NCBI GenBank assembly: GCA_000004985.1
Contig: GG739022.1
DNA length: 10,499 nucleotides
Strand: one strand, 5' to 3'
Origin: Naegleria gruberi
Lineage: Eukaryota
Shown here: positions 911-10,499 of the stretch, piece by piece
How the letters are laid out: each line of letters starts with the position of its first letter
Position numbering within the stretch: position 1 is the first letter of the stretch
Notes under the pieces: model-generated
Seen by the model: the letters and a program-made list of their open reading frames with translations, nothing else
The model's database searches: none
What the model was told of the DNA's origin: nothing
Program-made: the position numbers and the translations under genes

Positions 911-1123
911 TTATTCTTCCTTCTGCTCTGGCAATGAAGAGCATGCATGTAAATGTTTCGTCTTTTTAAAGTTTCGTCCAGAGAATGAATCCTCTTCATT
1001 CAGCTGTACTAATTCATCTTGTTTCTCGTCGTCTATTGTTTCTTCATGTGTTGGACTCAAAGAAGGTTCTTTCACTCTTCTCTTTCTCTTCAAAGTGGAA
1101 AGTTTCAATTCGTCCTGACATGT
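911..1123 (-). CDS. C-terminal fragment (about 70 codons visible) of a protein-coding gene that continues into gap 1. It is a charged low-complexity tail: ...TCQDELKLSTLKRKRRVKEPSLSPTHEETIDDEKQDELVQLNEEDSFSGRNFKKTKHLHACSSLPEQKEE*.
   Basis: This is the longest open frame on either strand in 911-1136, with a TAA stop at 911-913 (tta on the + strand). Codon usage is yeast-like (Arg = AGA x3, Leu mostly TTG/TTA). The overlapping + strand frames (985->, 1019->) use CGT for Arg three times, which is atypical here. A basic KRKRR cluster followed by an acidic stretch resembles the tails of nuclear or nucleolar proteins. The ORF-track 'M' at 1108 is really TTG (the track accepts alternative starts), so it is not a true start. 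Confidence 0.4.
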   Translation of the reverse strand, partial: TCQDELKLSTLKRKRRVKEPSLSPTHEETIDDEKQDELVQLNEEDSFSGRNFKKTKHLHACSSLPEQKEE

Positions 1124-1136
1124 NTCGAATACATGT

Positions 1137-2744: not shown

Positions 2745-2934
2745 TGTCATTCGAAACAAGGCTTGTTTCTTGATTATTAAAATGTAATTCCTTGATGTTA
2801 GAGTTGTTCATCATTGTGTTTTTTTTGATTGTTTTTCGAACATGATAGTTGGCGGTAGGCATGAACCATTTCACAAGCCTTGACGCCATGAGCTGACACA
2901 TTTCTTTGGTTTTTAAAGTTTCCTTAAATGGCAT
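2745..2934 (-). CDS. Possible N-terminal fragment of a minus-strand gene entering gap 1 (MPFKETLKTKEMCQLMASRLVKWFMPTANYHVRKTIKKNTMMNNSNIKELHFNNQETSLVSND...). It may be the same gene as the fragment at 911-1123.
   Basis: ATG at 2932-2934 (cat on +) is the first ATG after an in-frame stop at 2959-2961, and 63 codons are open to the gap edge. Weak points: -3 is T (poor context), and the Arg codons are AGG/CGA rather than AGA. The divergent orientation relative to the RRM gene across an 866-bp intergenic region is a plausible layout. Confidence 0.25.
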
Positions 2935-3158
2935 CCAAAATTGGTTTTGATTTGTGACTTATTAATTGTACAACTTTGACAGAATTGGCGCATCTCAGTA
3001 ATTTAAGGAAGGAACTCCAATGTATTAACTTGATGTTGTGGTTTCACATTTGCTACTCATTTGGAAATATGGAGTTTGGCCCTGAAATGTTCGATCTATC
3101 ACGTTTCAACATATTTTTAACATTATTCGATTCTCGTACAATAATCATTTTCAGATGA

Positions 3159-3184
3159 TACAGCACGTTTACTTCAAATTTGAC
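3159..3184 (+). repeat. Left terminal inverted repeat of the candidate MITE
   Basis: 26 bp, 25/26 reverse-complementary to 3532-3557. By my rough estimate a chance match of this length in about 3.5 kb has probability around 1e-7. Confidence 0.85.
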
Positions 3185-3531
3185 GCGTTTTTTGAAAGAA
3201 AATAAATTATTTAGAAAAAATTTTGTTGTTCTTCTGCTGTCAAATCCAAAATAAGCATTTCAATAGAACAACACCTAACCACTCGTTCTTACTCATTTCT
3301 ACATATTTTTGAGAATGCTGCCACCCCAAGGGGTATGTCAATGCGAGGATTCATAATTTGAAGTCAGATTTCAAAACTACCTTAATTCCATCGAGAAATT
3401 AGCATTTTGTTGAATAAAATATTATCGTTACAGATTCTTTTCAAATGGAGTTGAGTTTACTTGCCAAATCAAAATTGAAAGATGAAATACTTTAAATTTT
3501 AAAAAAAACAATTTTAATTTCCCCAAATCTT

Positions 3532-3557
3532 GTCAAACTTGAAGTAAACGTGCTGTA
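3532..3557 (-). repeat. Right terminal inverted repeat of the candidate MITE
   Basis: Reverse complement of 3159-3184 with one mismatch (g3539 against a3177). Confidence 0.85.
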
Positions 3558-3800
3558 CCATGCAATAAGATATTGTTCAATAAATTCATAAATTAAAAAT
3601 TCATCAATTATTAATTTCAAATCAAAACAAAATTCAACCGAAACAAACAATATTTTATTGAATCACCCAATCAAATAGATAACACAAGCAAAATAAATAA
3701 TTTTGACCGATTTGCCCACATCAAAAGCGAATATTTTTTATTCAATCAAAACGATAACCGCAGACTTTGTAATTTTGCTGAAAAAAAATTCTCAACAACA
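3558..3800 (+). promoter_or_regulatory. Promoter / 5' leader of the RRM gene. It is A/C-rich and T-poor on the coding strand, and the start context is caacaATG (A at -3).
   Basis: The composition (caaaacaaaattcaaccgaaacaaacaa...aaaaaaaattctcaacaaca) is typical of 5' leaders of highly expressed yeast genes. I did not find a clear TATAAA. The boundaries are approximate. Confidence 0.35.
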
Positions 3801-4088
3801 ATGTCTTCATTCAACAAACTCGCTAGAGTCTTCGTCTCCAATCTCACTTACACTGCTAAATGGCAAGCTGTTAAGACTCACTTCTCTCAATCTGGTAACG
3901 TTACCTTCGTCAAACTCATTGTTGACCAAGCTACTCAAAAGCCAAAGGGTATGGGTGTTGTTACTTTCGAAAAGCCAGAAGAAGCCGAACACGCCATCAA
4001 GACTTTGAACGGAAGCGACTTCGAAGGTAGACAAATCAAAGTTAGAGAATATGTAGAAAGAGCTCCAAGAACTGAAGAATCACAATAA
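3801..4088 (+). CDS. Small (95-aa) single-RRM RNA-binding protein with an hnRNP-M / Gbp2-Hrb1-type RRM. The gene is complete.
   Basis: Runs from ATG to TAA. RNP-2 is VFVSNL (residues 10-15) and RNP-1 is KGMGVVTF (residues 49-56). The KGxGVVxF...PEEAExAI..NG..FEGRQIKV pattern matches the non-aromatic RNP-1 variant seen in hnRNP M RRM3 and yeast Gbp2/Hrb1. Codon bias is very strong (AGA, GGT, GCT, GTT, TTC, AAG, CAA, and no CTG), implying high expression. The start context is good and the 3' flank is AT-rich. The overlapping ORF-track frames (3703..4008 with a TTG start, and 3807..4034 on the minus strand) are alternative frames of this gene. Confidence 0.85.
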   Translation: MSSFNKLARVFVSNLTYTAKWQAVKTHFSQSGNVTFVKLIVDQATQKPKGMGVVTFEKPEEAEHAIKTLNGSDFEGRQIKVREYVERAPRTEESQ

Positions 4089-4175
4089 TTAAATTTATAA
4101 AATATTAAACTAGGCTCTGTTCATCTTTTTGAATTTGAAAATAAATTAATAGACTTTTTTTGATGAATAATATCA
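4089..4175. terminator. Convergent 3'-end / polyadenylation region shared by the RRM gene (+) and the minus-strand gene that ends at 4176
   Basis: An 87-bp AT-rich spacer lies between two convergent stop codons. It contains yeast-type 3' processing motifs (tttataaaata efficiency-element-like sequence, AATAAA at about 4139-4144, and T-runs). Confidence 0.35.
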
Positions 4176-4269
4176 TTAATAATAATGAAGTAATTTATTT
4201 AGCTCCAAACTTCTTTCAATATCTGCCTTCTGATTGCCATTGTTGAACAACTTTCTTTGCTTCTTCTGA
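4176..4269 (-). CDS. Probable C-terminal 30 codons (...QKKQRKLFNNGNQKADIERSLELNKLLHYY*) of a minus-strand gene whose body lies in gap 2
   Basis: The frame is open from the gap edge to a TAA stop at 4176-4178. Codons are yeast-like (AGA, TTG, AAG). The convergent layout with the RRM gene is plausible. With only about 31 codons visible, this could still be chance. Confidence 0.3.
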
Positions 4270-7200
4270 NNNNNNNNNNNNNNNNNNNNNNNNNNNNNNN
4301 NNNNNNNNNNNNNNNNNNNNNNNNNNNNNNNNNNNNNNNNNNNNNNNNNNNNNNNNNNNNNNNNNNNNNNNNNNNNNNNNNNNNNNNNNNNNNNNNNNNN
4401 NNNNNNNNNNNNNNNNNNNNNNNNNNNNNNNNNNNNNNNNNNNNNNNNNNNNNNNNNNNNNNNNNNNNNNNNNNNNNNNNNNNNNNNNNNNNNNNNNNNN
4501 NNNNNNNNNNNNNNNNNNNNNNNNNNNNNNNNNNNNNNNNNNNNNNNNNNNNNNNNNNNNNNNNNNNNNNNNNNNNNNNNNNNNNNNNNNNNNNNNNNNN
4601 NNNNNNNNNNNNNNNNNNNNNNNNNNNNNNNNNNNNNNNNNNNNNNNNNNNNNNNNNNNNNNNNNNNNNNNNNNNNNNNNNNNNNNNNNNNNNNNNNNNN
4701 NNNNNNNNNNNNNNNNNNNNNNNNNNNNNNNNNNNNNNNNNNNNNNNNNNNNNNNNNNNNNNNNNNNNNNNNNNNNNNNNNNNNNNNNNNNNNNNNNNNN
4801 NNNNNNNNNNNNNNNNNNNNNNNNNNNNNNNNNNNNNNNNNNNNNNNNNNNNNNNNNNNNNNNNNNNNNNNNNNNNNNNNNNNNNNNNNNNNNNNNNNNN
4901 NNNNNNNNNNNNNNNNNNNNNNNNNNNNNNNNNNNNNNNNNNNNNNNNNNNNNNNNNNNNNNNNNNNNNNNNNNNNNNNNNNNNNNNNNNNNNNNNNNNN
5001 NNNNNNNNNNNNNNNNNNNNNNNNNNNNNNNNNNNNNNNNNNNNNNNNNNNNNNNNNNNNNNNNNNNNNNNNNNNNNNNNNNNNNNNNNNNNNNNNNNNN
5101 NNNNNNNNNNNNNNNNNNNNNNNNNNNNNNNNNNNNNNNNNNNNNNNNNNNNNNNNNNNNNNNNNNNNNNNNNNNNNNNNNNNNNNNNNNNNNNNNNNNN
5201 NNNNNNNNNNNNNNNNNNNNNNNNNNNNNNNNNNNNNNNNNNNNNNNNNNNNNNNNNNNNNNNNNNNNNNNNNNNNNNNNNNNNNNNNNNNNNNNNNNNN
5301 NNNNNNNNNNNNNNNNNNNNNNNNNNNNNNNNNNNNNNNNNNNNNNNNNNNNNNNNNNNNNNNNNNNNNNNNNNNNNNNNNNNNNNNNNNNNNNNNNNNN
5401 NNNNNNNNNNNNNNNNNNNNNNNNNNNNNNNNNNNNNNNNNNNNNNNNNNNNNNNNNNNNNNNNNNNNNNNNNNNNNNNNNNNNNNNNNNNNNNNNNNNN
5501 NNNNNNNNNNNNNNNNNNNNNNNNNNNNNNNNNNNNNNNNNNNNNNNNNNNNNNNNNNNNNNNNNNNNNNNNNNNNNNNNNNNNNNNNNNNNNNNNNNNN
5601 NNNNNNNNNNNNNNNNNNNNNNNNNNNNNNNNNNNNNNNNNNNNNNNNNNNNNNNNNNNNNNNNNNNNNNNNNNNNNNNNNNNNNNNNNNNNNNNNNNNN
5701 NNNNNNNNNNNNNNNNNNNNNNNNNNNNNNNNNNNNNNNNNNNNNNNNNNNNNNNNNNNNNNNNNNNNNNNNNNNNNNNNNNNNNNNNNNNNNNNNNNNN
5801 NNNNNNNNNNNNNNNNNNNNNNNNNNNNNNNNNNNNNNNNNNNNNNNNNNNNNNNNNNNNNNNNNNNNNNNNNNNNNNNNNNNNNNNNNNNNNNNNNNNN
5901 NNNNNNNNNNNNNNNNNNNNNNNNNNNNNNNNNNNNNNNNNNNNNNNNNNNNNNNNNNNNNNNNNNNNNNNNNNNNNNNNNNNNNNNNNNNNNNNNNNNN
6001 NNNNNNNNNNNNNNNNNNNNNNNNNNNNNNNNNNNNNNNNNNNNNNNNNNNNNNNNNNNNNNNNNNNNNNNNNNNNNNNNNNNNNNNNNNNNNNNNNNNN
6101 NNNNNNNNNNNNNNNNNNNNNNNNNNNNNNNNNNNNNNNNNNNNNNNNNNNNNNNNNNNNNNNNNNNNNNNNNNNNNNNNNNNNNNNNNNNNNNNNNNNN
6201 NNNNNNNNNNNNNNNNNNNNNNNNNNNNNNNNNNNNNNNNNNNNNNNNNNNNNNNNNNNNNNNNNNNNNNNNNNNNNNNNNNNNNNNNNNNNNNNNNNNN
6301 NNNNNNNNNNNNNNNNNNNNNNNNNNNNNNNNNNNNNNNNNNNNNNNNNNNNNNNNNNNNNNNNNNNNNNNNNNNNNNNNNNNNNNNNNNNNNNNNNNNN
6401 NNNNNNNNNNNNNNNNNNNNNNNNNNNNNNNNNNNNNNNNNNNNNNNNNNNNNNNNNNNNNNNNNNNNNNNNNNNNNNNNNNNNNNNNNNNNNNNNNNNN
6501 NNNNNNNNNNNNNNNNNNNNNNNNNNNNNNNNNNNNNNNNNNNNNNNNNNNNNNNNNNNNNNNNNNNNNNNNNNNNNNNNNNNNNNNNNNNNNNNNNNNN
6601 NNNNNNNNNNNNNNNNNNNNNNNNNNNNNNNNNNNNNNNNNNNNNNNNNNNNNNNNNNNNNNNNNNNNNNNNNNNNNNNNNNNNNNNNNNNNNNNNNNNN
6701 NNNNNNNNNNNNNNNNNNNNNNNNNNNNNNNNNNNNNNNNNNNNNNNNNNNNNNNNNNNNNNNNNNNNNNNNNNNNNNNNNNNNNNNNNNNNNNNNNNNN
6801 NNNNNNNNNNNNNNNNNNNNNNNNNNNNNNNNNNNNNNNNNNNNNNNNNNNNNNNNNNNNNNNNNNNNNNNNNNNNNNNNNNNNNNNNNNNNNNNNNNNN
6901 NNNNNNNNNNNNNNNNNNNNNNNNNNNNNNNNNNNNNNNNNNNNNNNNNNNNNNNNNNNNNNNNNNNNNNNNNNNNNNNNNNNNNNNNNNNNNNNNNNNN
7001 NNNNNNNNNNNNNNNNNNNNNNNNNNNNNNNNNNNNNNNNNNNNNNNNNNNNNNNNNNNNNNNNNNNNNNNNNNNNNNNNNNNNNNNNNNNNNNNNNNNN
7101 NNNNNNNNNNNNNNNNNNNNNNNNNNNNNNNNNNNNNNNNNNNNNNNNNNNNNNNNNNNNNNNNNNNNNNNNNNNNNNNNNNNNNNNNNNNNNNNNNNNN

Positions 7201-9648
7201 NNNNNNNNNNNNNNNNNNNNNNNNNNNNNNNNNNNNNNNNNNNNNNNNNNNNNNNNNNNNNNNNNNNNNNNNNNNNNNNNNNNNNNNNNNNNNNNNNNNN
7301 NNNNNNNNNNNNNNNNNNNNNNNNNNNNNNNNNNNNNNNNNNNNNNNNNNNNNNNNNNNNNNNNNNNNNNNNNNNNNNNNNNNNNNNNNNNNNNNNNNNN
7401 NNNNNNNNNNNNNNNNNNNNNNNNNNNNNNNNNNNNNNNNNNNNNNNNNNNNNNNNNNNNNNNNNNNNNNNNNNNNNNNNNNNNNNNNNNNNNNNNNNNN
7501 NNNNNNNNNNNNNNNNNNNNNNNNNNNNNNNNNNNNNNNNNNNNNNNNNNNNNNNNNNNNNNNNNNNNNNNNNNNNNNNNNNNNNNNNNNNNNNNNNNNN
7601 NNNNNNNNNNNNNNNNNNNNNNNNNNNNNNNNNNNNNNNNNNNNNNNNNNNNNNNNNNNNNNNNNNNNNNNNNNNNNNNNNNNNNNNNNNNNNNNNNNNN
7701 NNNNNNNNNNNNNNNNNNNNNNNNNNNNNNNNNNNNNNNNNNNNNNNNNNNNNNNNNNNNNNNNNNNNNNNNNNNNNNNNNNNNNNNNNNNNNNNNNNNN
7801 NNNNNNNNNNNNNNNNNNNNNNNNNNNNNNNNNNNNNNNNNNNNNNNNNNNNNNNNNNNNNNNNNNNNNNNNNNNNNNNNNNNNNNNNNNNNNNNNNNNN
7901 NNNNNNNNNNNNNNNNNNNNNNNNNNNNNNNNNNNNNNNNNNNNNNNNNNNNNNNNNNNNNNNNNNNNNNNNNNNNNNNNNNNNNNNNNNNNNNNNNNNN
8001 NNNNNNNNNNNNNNNNNNNNNNNNNNNNNNNNNNNNNNNNNNNNNNNNNNNNNNNNNNNNNNNNNNNNNNNNNNNNNNNNNNNNNNNNNNNNNNNNNNNN
8101 NNNNNNNNNNNNNNNNNNNNNNNNNNNNNNNNNNNNNNNNNNNNNNNNNNNNNNNNNNNNNNNNNNNNNNNNNNNNNNNNNNNNNNNNNNNNNNNNNNNN
8201 NNNNNNNNNNNNNNNNNNNNNNNNNNNNNNNNNNNNNNNNNNNNNNNNNNNNNNNNNNNNNNNNNNNNNNNNNNNNNNNNNNNNNNNNNNNNNNNNNNNN
8301 NNNNNNNNNNNNNNNNNNNNNNNNNNNNNNNNNNNNNNNNNNNNNNNNNNNNNNNNNNNNNNNNNNNNNNNNNNNNNNNNNNNNNNNNNNNNNNNNNNNN
8401 NNNNNNNNNNNNNNNNNNNNNNNNNNNNNNNNNNNNNNNNNNNNNNNNNNNNNNNNNNNNNNNNNNNNNNNNNNNNNNNNNNNNNNNNNNNNNNNNNNNN
8501 NNNNNNNNNNNNNNNNNNNNNNNNNNNNNNNNNNNNNNNNNNNNNNNNNNNNNNNNNNNNNNNNNNNNNNNNNNNNNNNNNNNNNNNNNNNNNNNNNNNN
8601 NNNNNNNNNNNNNNNNNNNNNNNNNNNNNNNNNNNNNNNNNNNNNNNNNNNNNNNNNNNNNNNNNNNNNNNNNNNNNNNNNNNNNNNNNNNNNNNNNNNN
8701 NNNNNNNNNNNNNNNNNNNNNNNNNNNNNNNNNNNNNNNNNNNNNNNNNNNNNNNNNNNNNNNNNNNNNNNNNNNNNNNNNNNNNNNNNNNNNNNNNNNN
8801 NNNNNNNNNNNNNNNNNNNNNNNNNNNNNNNNNNNNNNNNNNNNNNNNNNNNNNNNNNNNNNNNNNNNNNNNNNNNNNNNNNNNNNNNNNNNNNNNNNNN
8901 NNNNNNNNNNNNNNNNNNNNNNNNNNNNNNNNNNNNNNNNNNNNNNNNNNNNNNNNNNNNNNNNNNNNNNNNNNNNNNNNNNNNNNNNNNNNNNNNNNNN
9001 NNNNNNNNNNNNNNNNNNNNNNNNNNNNNNNNNNNNNNNNNNNNNNNNNNNNNNNNNNNNNNNNNNNNNNNNNNNNNNNNNNNNNNNNNNNNNNNNNNNN
9101 NNNNNNNNNNNNNNNNNNNNNNNNNNNNNNNNNNNNNNNNNNNNNNNNNNNNNNNNNNNNNNNNNNNNNNNNNNNNNNNNNNNNNNNNNNNNNNNNNNNN
9201 NNNNNNNNNNNNNNNNNNNNNNNNNNNNNNNNNNNNNNNNNNNNNNNNNNNNNNNNNNNNNNNNNNNNNNNNNNNNNNNNNNNNNNNNNNNNNNNNNNNN
9301 NNNNNNNNNNNNNNNNNNNNNNNNNNNNNNNNNNNNNNNNNNNNNNNNNNNNNNNNNNNNNNNNNNNNNNNNNNNNNNNNNNNNNNNNNNNNNNNNNNNN
9401 NNNNNNNNNNNNNNNNNNNNNNNNNNNNNNNNNNNNNNNNNNNNNNNNNNNNNNNNNNNNNNNNNNNNNNNNNNNNNNNNNNNNNNNNNNNNNNNNNNNN
9501 NNNNNNNNNNNNNNNNNNNNNNNNNNNNNNNNNNNNNNNNNNNNNNNNNNNNNNNNNNNNNNNNNNNNNNNNNNNNNNNNNNNNNNNNNNNNNNNNNNNN
9601 NNNNNNNNNNNNNNNNNNNNNNNNNNNNNNNNNNNNNNNNNNNNNNNN
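4270..9648. other. Assembly gap / masked run of 5379 N
   Basis: Continuous n characters. The gap is sized but its true length is unknown, so reading frames across it cannot be linked. Confidence 0.95.
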
Positions 9649-9681
9649 TGTGAAGGAAAGAATGTGTTTGTACTAGAGACC

Positions 9682-10499
9682 TTAAACAAAAAGTGGCGAT
9701 TTATAGTCATGTATTTGAAGTAAATCTCTCTCGTGGGAGTTTTGAGAGGTGTTCAGTTTGCTTTTAAATGCTTTAACATTGCTTTGGAATGACGATGGAG
9801 ATTTACAAAAAATGTTTGGAGAACTGAGACTTGATTCAAAGACTGGTTTCAGTTTTGTTCTGTTTGGACTAAGTGTTTCAACCTTAACTGCAGATGGTCT
9901 CTTTTTACAATGTGCAGGAGGAGAATTAACTCTAAAGTCAAGGAAGGAAGCAGAGCAGGACTTGGCAAATTGTGGTCTTGGTGGTGTTGATGGGGAAGAT
10001 GGAATTGAATTGCTATTAGTAACTGTTATGGAATAATGACATGTTGTTTCAGCATGGTCTATGGAATTAAAATCCACAGAGTGAATTTGGAAAGGTGAAG
10101 AAGGCATTGAAACGGATTTAGGTGTTTTACATTCTGTAATGTTGTTTTTAGCCAAGCTTGATGATCGTCTTCTTTTAAGATTATCATAATTATCAAATGA
10201 AGCCAAAAGAGAAAGTGGAATTCTGGTTCCTTTTTTCAACATTTCTTTTCTATGCGAAAGATCAGGACCACAGTTATCTTTAGAGTTGATTTCAAAATGT
10301 TTTGGTGGAGAGGATTGTATGAAAGTGTCATTCTTATGGTGGAAGGAAGAAGTATTTGGTGAGGTAGGGCTCATTAAACCTCCATGAATGGCATTAAGGC
10401 GCTTATGATGTGATCTAGGGGTTGTTACTGGTGAAGAGGTATTGGAATCAACTTGTGGTGATTGATCATCATTCTTCCATAGAGAATGAAATCTGGAGG
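9682..10499 (-). CDS. Ser/Pro/Thr/Asn-rich low-complexity protein, 5'-truncated by the window edge. Stop is TAA at 9682-9684. The protein carries many S/T-P (proline-directed kinase) motifs and a KRRRSSS basic-Ser cluster.
   Basis: The ORF track reports 230 aa from an ATG at 10374. I translated upstream to 10499 and found no stop (…SRFHSLWKNDDQSPQVDSNTSSPVTTPRSHHKRLNAIHGGL-MSPTSPNTSS…), and the composition stays the same, so the true start is almost certainly beyond the window. The protein contains SPPK, TPK, TPPR and SPNR (full S/T-P-x-K/R CDK-type consensus) plus many minimal SP/TP sites. It is predicted to be disordered. Confidence 0.7.
   Translation of the reverse strand, partial: SRFHSLWKNDDQSPQVDSNTSSPVTTPRSHHKRLNAIHGGLMSPTSPNTSSFHHKNDTFIQSSPPKHFEINSKDNCGPDLSHRKEMLKKGTRIPLSLLASFDNYDNLKRRRSSSLAKNNITECKTPKSVSMPSSPFQIHSVDFNSIDHAETTCHYSITVTNSNSIPSSPSTPPRPQFAKSCSASFLDFRVNSPPAHCKKRPSAVKVETLSPNRTKLKPVFESSLSSPNIFCKSPSSFQSNVKAFKSKLNTSQNSHERDLLQIHDYKSPLFV

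What the first reader, a model, noticed from the sequence alone, without database searches (positions are those of the whole stretch)
3159..3557. MITE-like element (26-bp TIRs, CAG termini, TA flanks) in the divergent promoter region upstream of the RRM gene
This is the strongest non-genic structure in the window. Two 26-bp sequences 347 bp apart are reverse complements at 25/26 positions, which is far beyond chance in about 3.5 kb. The element termini read CAGCACGTTTAC... and ...GTAAACGTGCTG, each immediately flanked by TA. That matches the known architecture of Tc1/mariner-family DNA transposons and their Stowaway-type MITE derivatives. Those elements have TIRs that commonly begin with CAG and insert at TA, duplicating it. 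The ~350-bp interior is AT-rich and non-coding, so the element would be non-autonomous. It sits 225 bp from one divergent ATG and 244 bp from the other, so it may contribute to or perturb promoter function of the highly expressed RRM gene. If the host is a Candida-clade yeast, Tc1/mariner-type elements (Cirt family) are known there, but I cannot assign this copy to a described family from sequence alone.
Basis: partly seen in the sequence, partly recalled or inferred. Interest (0 to 1): 0.75.

Follow-up and report, generated by a model that had tools for sequence, protein, structure and literature searches.

The report
Probable MITE insertion in Naegleria intergenic DNA
A 395-bp non-coding segment with near-perfect 24-bp inverted ends and TA on each side looks like a small, non-autonomous Tc1/mariner-type transposon in the genome of a Naegleria amoeba (not a yeast); this is an ordinary kind of element, and I could not check whether other copies exist.

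Summary
CAGCACGTTTACTTCAA[A/G]TTTGAC lies at 3161-3184 (+) and 3532-3555 (-). It matches at 23/24 positions, or 25/26 counting the TA on each outer side. The arms are 347 bp apart, and this is well beyond chance.

The anatomy fits a Tc1/mariner-type MITE: it is short, has TIRs, shows TA as the only possible target-site duplication, and has no coding capacity. The repeat is absent from the orthologous RRM-upstream regions of five relatives, so it is not a conserved regulatory stem.

The defining tests could not be run. These are multiple dispersed copies, an alignable empty site, and an autonomous partner with the same TIRs. The source genome is in none of the searchable DNA collections, and the TIR scans returned only single matches at about the number chance predicts.

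The host is a heterolobosean amoeba close to Naegleria gruberi, not a Candida-clade yeast, so Cirt is irrelevant. The "divergent ATG" at 2934 has no support. The conserved promoter boxes of the RRM gene all lie within about 110 bp of its ATG, and the element ends 243 bp upstream, so it does not interrupt them.

Verdict: a probable single MITE-like insertion, an ordinary new member of a known kind, of low interest.

The parts
3159..3160 (.). TA dinucleotide immediately outside the left terminus; putative left copy of the target-site duplication
   Evidence: Read directly. TA/TA is the only flank duplication of 2-10 bp that matches. TA has a frequency of 0.066 in the visible DNA, so both flanks being TA by chance has probability about 0.004.
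3161..3184 (+). Left terminal inverted repeat, CAGCACGTTTACTTCAAATTTGAC
   Evidence: It is 23/24 complementary to 3532-3555. The 12-mer terminus occurs only at the two ends of the element.
3185..3531 (.). Non-coding interior of 347 bp at 28.8% GC, with no internal palindromic symmetry
   Evidence: The longest stop-free stretch is 48 codons and the seven longest (29-48 codons) have no Pfam match above cut-off. There is no Rfam family at E<=1 and no tRNA. When folded as single-stranded DNA, the terminal stem is the only long helix kept in the centroid structure; apart from it only two short (5- and 9-pair) interior helices remain.
3532..3555 (-). Right terminal inverted repeat; its reverse complement reads CAGCACGTTTACTTCAAGTTTGAC
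3556..3557 (.). TA dinucleotide immediately outside the right terminus; putative right copy of the target-site duplication
3690..3800 (+). Context, not part of the element: core promoter of the RRM gene. It carries the boxes TTCAATCAA (3741-3749), TTTGTAA and GAAAAAAAAT, and lies downstream of the element and intact.
   Evidence: The same boxes in the same order occur within about 110 nt of the ATG in the window, L004, L001, N. fowleri, N. lovaniensis and W. magna.
3801..4088 (+). Context: 95-aa single-RRM protein gene, 243 bp downstream of the element
   Evidence: ORF. Pfam RRM_1 at E=3.9e-21. Orthologs lie next to the same diflavin-reductase gene in Naegleria and Willaertia.

Best explanation
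The segment 3161-3555 is a non-autonomous cut-and-paste DNA transposon, a MITE or an internally deleted relic, of the TA-targeting Tc1/mariner (ITm) type. It sits in intergenic DNA of a Naegleria gruberi-like amoeba.

Inferred mechanism: a DDE/D transposase encoded elsewhere binds the 24-bp terminal inverted repeats, excises the element and integrates it at a TA dinucleotide. Repair duplicates the TA on both sides.

This copy landed 243 bp upstream of the start codon of a small RRM-protein gene, outside that gene's conserved core promoter, and is most likely neutral there.

What is shown and what is inferred:
- Shown: the anatomy, the lack of coding capacity, the statistical significance, the absence from orthologous regions in relatives, and the host identity.
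- Inferred: mobility, superfamily, trans-mobilisation and neutrality.
For: - The inverted repeat is 23/24 (25/26 with TA), spaced 347 bp, and far beyond chance.
- About 75 kb of related Naegleria and Willaertia loci hold no comparable spaced repeat.
- TA/TA is the only possible target-site duplication; flanks of 3-10 bp, as expected for hAT, PIF, piggyBac, Mutator, CACTA and others, do not match. The chance that both flanks are TA is about 0.004.
- Termini beginning with CAG are typical of Tc1 and pogo elements (my own knowledge).
- There is no ORF longer than 48 codons, no Pfam match above cut-off among the seven longest stop-free stretches, no Rfam match and no tRNA.
- Only the termini form a robust pairing; the interior is not a long hairpin.
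- The repeat is lineage-specific. The RRM-upstream intergenic regions are only 177-237 bp in N. fowleri, N. lovaniensis, L001 and L004, and 1335 bp in W. magna. None of these loci has a match to the 19-mer terminus with up to 4 mismatches.
- The published hallmarks of Tc1/mariner MITEs in another amoeba-associated genome are the same: short length, TIRs, TA duplication and no coding capacity (PMC4495683, read).
Against: - No second copy was found anywhere. The TIR scans gave 0 hits in viral contigs, 3 in JGI metagenomes and 7 in GTDB genomes. All were single matches with no partner arm and no similarity beyond 20-30 nt, at about the number expected by chance. These collections do not contain the source genome, so this is absence of a test, not a negative result.
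- No alignable empty site exists. Homology with the closest relative (L004) is detectable only for about 70 bp upstream of the ATG. The DNA to the left of the element matches nothing in the relatives.
- TA is palindromic, so it could simply be part of the repeat. The complementarity continues 3/4 beyond it.
- No Naegleria MITE or matching TIR turned up in the searchable literature.
Confidence: 0.6

Rival explanations
1. It is a TIR transposon relic of another or unknown superfamily, or an old single-copy fossil. The TA belongs to the inverted repeat, making arms of 26-30 bp that start at TA or ATGRTA, and the true target-site duplication has decayed or never existed.
For: TA is a palindrome, and the complementarity extends outward 3/4 (ATGA vs ATGG). 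The repeat finder extends the arms to 3155-3222 and 3494-3561 at 71%. No copy and no transposase partner could be found to fix the superfamily.
Against: With the termini moved outward, no flank duplication of 2-10 bp appears. The 3/4 extension is about what chance gives (roughly 5%). The 71% sub-terminal complementarity is at background level for DNA of about 29% GC. The 96% identity of the arms argues against an old, decayed fossil.
Confidence: 0.15
2. It is a scar of a local rearrangement. A short inverted micro-duplication arose when the region upstream of the RRM gene was rearranged in this lineage, with no transposase involved.
For: The window has lost the approximately 695-aa gene that lies tail-to-head 177-237 bp upstream of the RRM gene in N. 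fowleri, N. lovaniensis, L001 and L004. The element sits roughly where that gene's 3' end would be.
Against: Rearrangement junctions do not usually produce two clean 24-bp arms 347 bp apart that are bounded exactly by TA. The position of the breakpoint cannot be located, because homology fades about 170 bp to the right of the element.
Confidence: 0.1
3. It is a species-specific cis-regulatory or structural inverted repeat, such as a cruciform, a protein-binding pair, or a carrier of a promoter box serving one of the neighbouring genes.
For: It lies in an intergenic region. Its interior (3403-3425, minus strand) holds a near-copy of the conserved RRM promoter box, TTTTATTCAA-CAAAATG, which matches L004 500-523 at 21/24.
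Against: It is not conserved in any of five related taxa, while the true promoter boxes are conserved in all of them and lie within about 110 bp of the ATG. The box-like match lacks the T of the invariant TTCAATCAA core. It is also no better than other AT-rich chance repeats listed.
Confidence: 0.05
4. It is a chance inverted repeat in AT-rich DNA.
For: The region is AT-rich, and many short inverted repeats of 14-23 nt at 75-93% are listed.
Against: None of 200 shuffles reaches 26 nt with at most one mismatch. The 12-mer is expected 0.17 times and is seen only at the two termini. A rough analytic estimate from my own calculation gives 1e-5 or less for this region.
Confidence: 0.01

Closest known systems
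Tc1/mariner-derived MITEs in general, for example Submariner_Ps1 of Pandoravirus salinus and its Acanthamoeba relatives (PMC4495683)
   Same: [quoted passage not shown] Both are associated with free-living amoebae.
   Different: Submariner was defined from 30 copies, evidence of transposition and a related transposase-bearing element with about 83% TIR identity. Here there is one copy and no partner. The host is a heterolobosean, not an amoebozoan or a virus. I could not compare the TIR sequences.
Stowaway MITEs of plants
   Same: Tc1/mariner-related, TA target-site duplication, a few hundred bp or less, AT-rich and non-coding.
   Different: Stowaway is a plant family whose TIR consensus begins CTCCCTCC (my own knowledge). 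This element begins CAGCACG and sits in an amoeba. The resemblance is one of architecture only.
   Same: Tc1/mariner-type TIR elements with TA target sites (my own knowledge).
   Different: The host here is Naegleria, not a yeast. The neighbouring diflavin-reductase gene ends with 17 of 17 residues identical to N. gruberi NAEGRDRAFT_59563. The RRM-reductase gene pair is syntenic in N. fowleri, N. lovaniensis and W. magna. No sequence link to Cirt was tested or is expected.
Tc1 and pogo/Tigger autonomous transposons
   Same: TIRs that begin with CAG next to a duplicated TA (my own knowledge).
   Different: There is no transposase ORF or remnant. At 395 bp the element is far shorter than the 1.3-2.5 kb of autonomous elements.

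Membership tests
MITE (generic definition) | Short length, under about 800 bp | tested here: met
   395 bp between the TA dinucleotides.
MITE (generic definition) | Terminal inverted repeats | tested here: met
   24-bp arms at 23/24, beyond chance.
MITE (generic definition) | No coding capacity | tested here: met
   The longest stop-free stretch is 48 codons. The seven longest (29-48 codons) have no Pfam match above cut-off, and there is no Rfam match or tRNA.
MITE (generic definition) | Flanking target-site duplication | tested here: inconclusive
   TA/TA is present and is the only duplication that fits. Because TA is palindromic, it cannot be separated from the inverted repeat without an empty site.
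MITE (generic definition) | Multiple dispersed copies in the host genome | not testable with these tools
   The source genome is not held. The exact RRM protein and the N. gruberi reductase are not on record. TIR scans of viral, metagenome and GTDB contigs returned only single matches at about the chance number.
MITE (generic definition) | Evidence of transposition, from an orthologous or paralogous empty site | tested here: inconclusive
   Five related loci lack the repeat. None aligns across the insertion point; homology ends about 70 bp upstream of the ATG and the left flank is non-syntenic.
Tc1/mariner (ITm) superfamily | TA target-site duplication | tested here: met
   TA lies on both sides, and duplications of 3-10 bp are excluded. 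The palindrome caveat applies.
Tc1/mariner (ITm) superfamily | An autonomous relative with a DDE/D transposase between similar TIRs | not testable with these tools
   No host genome DNA is available. No TIR-like sequence (up to 4 mismatches in 19) occurs in the roughly 95 kb of Naegleria, Willaertia and related loci scanned (L001-L004, L015-L019).
Stowaway (plant MITE family) | Plant host and the Stowaway TIR consensus (CTCCCTCC...) | tested here: not met
   The TIR reads CAGCACGTTTAC... and the host is Naegleria. The consensus is recalled from my own knowledge.
Cirt (Candida albicans Tc1/mariner elements) | Resident in Candida-clade yeast genomes, with sequence similarity to Cirt | tested here: not met
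   The host was identified as Naegleria by protein identity and synteny. Sequence similarity to Cirt was not tested because no Cirt sequence is held.

The most novel reading that the evidence does not exclude
This is one copy of an undescribed Tc1/mariner-type MITE family in Heterolobosea. Its interior carries a functional copy of a Naegleria core-promoter box (TTCAA(T)CAAAA), so the family spreads promoter elements to new loci. Its insertion may also have accompanied the loss or relocation of the gene that sits upstream of the RRM gene in sister species.
Probability: 0.07. Interest if true: 0.4.

Novelty: new member of a known kind. Interest (0 to 1): 0.2.

Why it matters
If confirmed as a multi-copy family, it would add a MITE family to the sparsely described mobile-element content of Naegleria. 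My literature searches found no MITE reported for the genus. It would also give presence/absence markers for typing strains of the N. gruberi group. This copy does not interrupt any conserved promoter element and has no evident effect on its neighbours, so its biological significance is small. The more useful outcome of this check is corrective. The host is an amoeba, not a yeast. The "divergent promoter" reading is unsupported. The real RRM promoter is a compact set of conserved boxes within about 110 bp of the ATG.

Tried and rejected
- Exact look-up of the RRM protein: not on record. The N. gruberi reductase P0005 is also not on record, so the host DNA could not be fetched.
- TIR scans. The 19-mer TACAGCACGTTTACTTCAA gave 0 hits in viral contigs and 3 in JGI metagenomes. 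The 18-mer gave 7 hits in GTDB genomes. Every hit is a single match with no partner arm. Two lie inside unrelated bacterial ORFs that encode DTARLLQ, and one is in an insect-like contig. I rejected all as chance.
- Search for the approximately 695-aa upstream gene of the relatives in the window by tblastn and tblastx: nothing. Comparison of the window's ORF fragments with the 654/656-aa neighbouring genes: nothing.
- The 63-aa ORF from the "divergent ATG": its only hit is a repeat-inflated spurious match at 34% identity over 35 residues to a 2182-aa repeat protein.
- The 271-aa ORF at the right edge of the window: no homolog.
- Rfam, tRNA and bacterial promoter/terminator scans: nothing relevant.
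- Long-hairpin or small-RNA precursor idea: rejected, because the terminal stem is the only long helix in the centroid fold and the interior keeps just two short helices.
- Giant-virus, trichomonad and yeast hosts were considered from composition and codon usage. They were dropped once the reductase gave 61-63% identity to Naegleria proteins with conserved synteny.
- Literature searches for Naegleria MITEs or mariner elements, and for the TIR string itself: nothing relevant.

Full report
**What can be read.** Only 1-1123, 2745-4269 and 9649-10499 of the window are readable. Positions 1137-2744 and 4270-9648 are runs of N. Every statement below concerns those roughly 3.5 kb.

**Observation.** The sequence reads TA-CAGCACGTTTACTTCAAATTTGAC at 3159-3184. 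The reverse complement of 3532-3557 reads TA-CAGCACGTTTACTTCAAGTTTGAC. The arms proper (3161-3184 and 3532-3555) match at 23/24, or 25/26 with the TA.

The 12-nt terminus occurs nowhere else in the window, against 0.17 expected. None of 200 shuffles of 2745-4269 gave an inverted repeat of 26 nt with at most one mismatch; the largest was 21. About 75 kb of related amoeba DNA has no widely spaced repeat of similar quality.

**Anatomy.**
- The interior is 347 bp at 28.8% GC, much like the surrounding non-coding DNA at 30.4%.
- The longest stop-free stretch is 48 codons, and none of the seven longest stretches (29-48 codons) reaches a Pfam cut-off.
- There is no Rfam family at E<=1 and no tRNA.
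- Folded as a single strand, the terminal stem is the only long helix in the centroid structure, with just two short interior helices besides it, so this is not a long hairpin.
- Flank comparison for duplications of 2-10 bp, at four possible boundary placements, finds only TA/TA next to CAG...CTG. TA has a frequency of 0.066 here, so TA on both sides by chance has probability about 0.004.
- TA is palindromic and the complementarity runs 3/4 further out (ATGA vs ATGG). Without an empty site, the TA could equally be counted as part of the repeat.

**Host.**
- The 95-aa RRM protein (3801-4088; Pfam RRM_1, E=3.9e-21) has only two database relatives. Both come from metagenome contigs, at 87% (L004) and 69% (L001-L003) identity.
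- On L001 the gene downstream of the RRM gene is a 744-aa diflavin reductase, 61-63% identical to proteins of N. fowleri, N. gruberi and N. lovaniensis, and 54% identical to one from Willaertia magna.
- In N. fowleri, N. lovaniensis and W. magna the same reductase lies tail-to-tail with a 93-99-aa RRM gene.
- The window's RRM protein is 62% identical to that of N. lovaniensis, 52% to N. fowleri and 51% to W. magna.
- The readable end of the window's reductase gene (4269 down to 4219, minus strand) encodes SEEAKKVVQQWQSEGRY. This matches N. gruberi NAEGRDRAFT_59563 at 17/17 residues, against 10-12/17 for the others.

The host is therefore a heterolobosean amoeba of the N. gruberi group, not a yeast. 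The Cirt comparison falls away.

**Comparison with orthologous regions.**
- In N. fowleri, N. lovaniensis, L001 and L004 the RRM gene is preceded, tail-to-head, by a gene of about 695 aa. The intergenic distances are 214, 177, 198 and 237 bp.
- In W. magna a divergent gene lies 1335 bp away.
- None of these loci has a match to the 19-nt terminus with up to four mismatches.
- No locus gives a clean empty site either. Homology between the window and its closest relative L004 is detectable only for about 70 bp upstream of the ATG. The DNA left of the element (2745-3158) matches nothing in the relatives at the DNA or protein level.
- The window's lineage has therefore undergone a rearrangement upstream of the RRM gene. 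I cannot say whether the element is connected with it.

**Promoter claim.**
- All six taxa share the same ordered boxes within about 110 bp of the RRM start codon: TTCAATCAA, then TTTGTAA, then GAAAAAAAAT.
- In the window these lie at about 3738-3790, and the element ends at 3557. It does not interrupt the conserved promoter.
- The "other divergent ATG" at 2934 opens an ORF that runs into the masked block. Its 63 readable residues have no real homolog among 1.84 billion representative proteins; the single hit is a repeat-inflated artefact.
- That ORF is also in a different frame from the only protein-like reading on the far side of the mask, 1135 down to 913 on the minus strand.
- The strand of the left-hand gene remains unknown.

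**Copy number and partner.** These are the defining tests, and they could not be done.
- The exact RRM protein and the N. gruberi reductase are not on record for DNA retrieval.
- The terminus was scanned in all three public DNA collections: 0 hits in viral contigs, 3 in JGI metagenomes and 7 in GTDB genomes.
- Each hit is a single match of 18-22 identical nucleotides (one, L006, aligns over 30 nt at 90%), with no partner arm and no similarity beyond that. Two fall in unrelated bacterial ORFs and one in an insect-like contig. By my own rough estimate the counts are about what chance gives for an 18-19-mer in collections of this size.
- The window itself was not recovered, so none of these collections contains the source genome. 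The scans say nothing about copy number in the host.
- Literature searches found no described Naegleria MITE and no occurrence of the TIR string.

**Interpretation.** The best-supported reading (confidence about 0.6) is a non-autonomous Tc1/mariner-type element, a MITE or an internally deleted relic. It would be mobilised in trans by a DDE/D transposase that recognises the 24-bp ends and inserts at TA. The hallmarks are the same as those used to define Submariner MITEs in an amoeba-associated genome (PMC4495683), but that study also had 30 copies and a transposase-bearing relative.

Rivals:
- A TIR relic of another superfamily in which the TA is part of the repeat (0.15).
- A scar of the local rearrangement (0.1).
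- A lineage-specific regulatory or structural repeat (0.05).
- Chance (under 0.01).

**Novelty and interest.** MITEs with TA flanks are commonplace in eukaryotes. One more, in a genus where they have not been catalogued in the literature I could search, is a new member of a known kind. It has no demonstrable effect on its neighbours. Interest is low, about 0.2.

The most novel reading still open is that the element belongs to a family carrying a Naegleria promoter box. Positions 3403-3425 hold an inverted near-copy, 21/24 to the L004 box. That match lacks the invariant T of the core and is at noise level for AT-rich DNA.

Noticed in passing
window 4199-4269 (minus strand): The end of the diflavin-reductase gene reads ...QSEGRY followed by a stop codon. 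The N. gruberi protein ends ...GRYLKEVWS, and LKEVWS-stop is present here one frame over. The window has TATTG where TATTTG is needed. This is a real frameshift, a strain difference, or a homopolymer error in the assembly.
   Followed up: partly
window 3690-3800; L004 480-591; L001 about 4430-4540; L015 about 12797-12910; L018 about 12840-12945; L019 about 12788-12975: The RRM gene has a compact promoter conserved across six heterolobosean taxa: TTCAATCAA, then TTTGTAA, then GAAAAAAAAT, all within about 110 nt of the ATG. All six TTCAATCAA occurrences in 67 kb of Naegleria and Willaertia loci are intergenic, which hints at a general promoter element.
   Followed up: partly
window 3403-3425 (minus strand), inside the element: An inverted near-copy of the RRM promoter box, TTTTATTCAA-CAAAATG, matches L004 500-523 at 21/24. 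Related AATATTTTATTSAA motifs lie at 3649-3662 and 3731-3746. The match lacks the T of the conserved core and is no better than other AT-rich chance repeats.
   Followed up: partly
window 2745-3730 compared with L015, L018, L001 and L004: Synteny break. Four relatives have a gene of about 695 aa ending 177-237 bp upstream of the RRM gene. No trace of it exists in the readable window DNA, where the upstream non-coding stretch is at least 1056 bp.
   Followed up: partly
window 913-1135 (minus strand) and 2745-2934 (minus strand): A charged, protein-like C-terminal tail reads out of the masked block on the minus strand (...DELKLSTLKRKRRVKEPSLSPTHEETIDDEKQDELVQLNEE..., stop near 913). It is in a different frame from the ORF that starts at the ATG at 2934. 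Either there is an intron or frameshift in the masked part, or the 2934 ORF is not the start of that gene.
   Followed up: partly
window 9682-10497 (minus strand): An open frame of 271 codons, rich in serine and proline, runs off the window edge. It has no detectable homolog in the 5.8-billion-protein search.
   Followed up: partly
L015 15588-15686 (N. fowleri): A tight hairpin with 36-nt arms at 97% complementarity and a 27-nt loop lies in the intergenic region between the 695-aa and 654-aa genes.
   Followed up: no
L005 1988-2009, L006 8966-8995, L007 2882-2902: All three metagenome hits to the 19-mer also share GA just before it, as does the window's left flank. In L006 and L007 the match sits in frame as GAT ACA GCA CGT TTA CTT CAA (DTARLLQ) in unrelated ORFs. 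I judged this a coincidence helped by codon structure.
   Followed up: yes
window 1124: A single N stands 12 bases before the long masked run. It may be an ambiguous base in the source assembly rather than masking.
   Followed up: no
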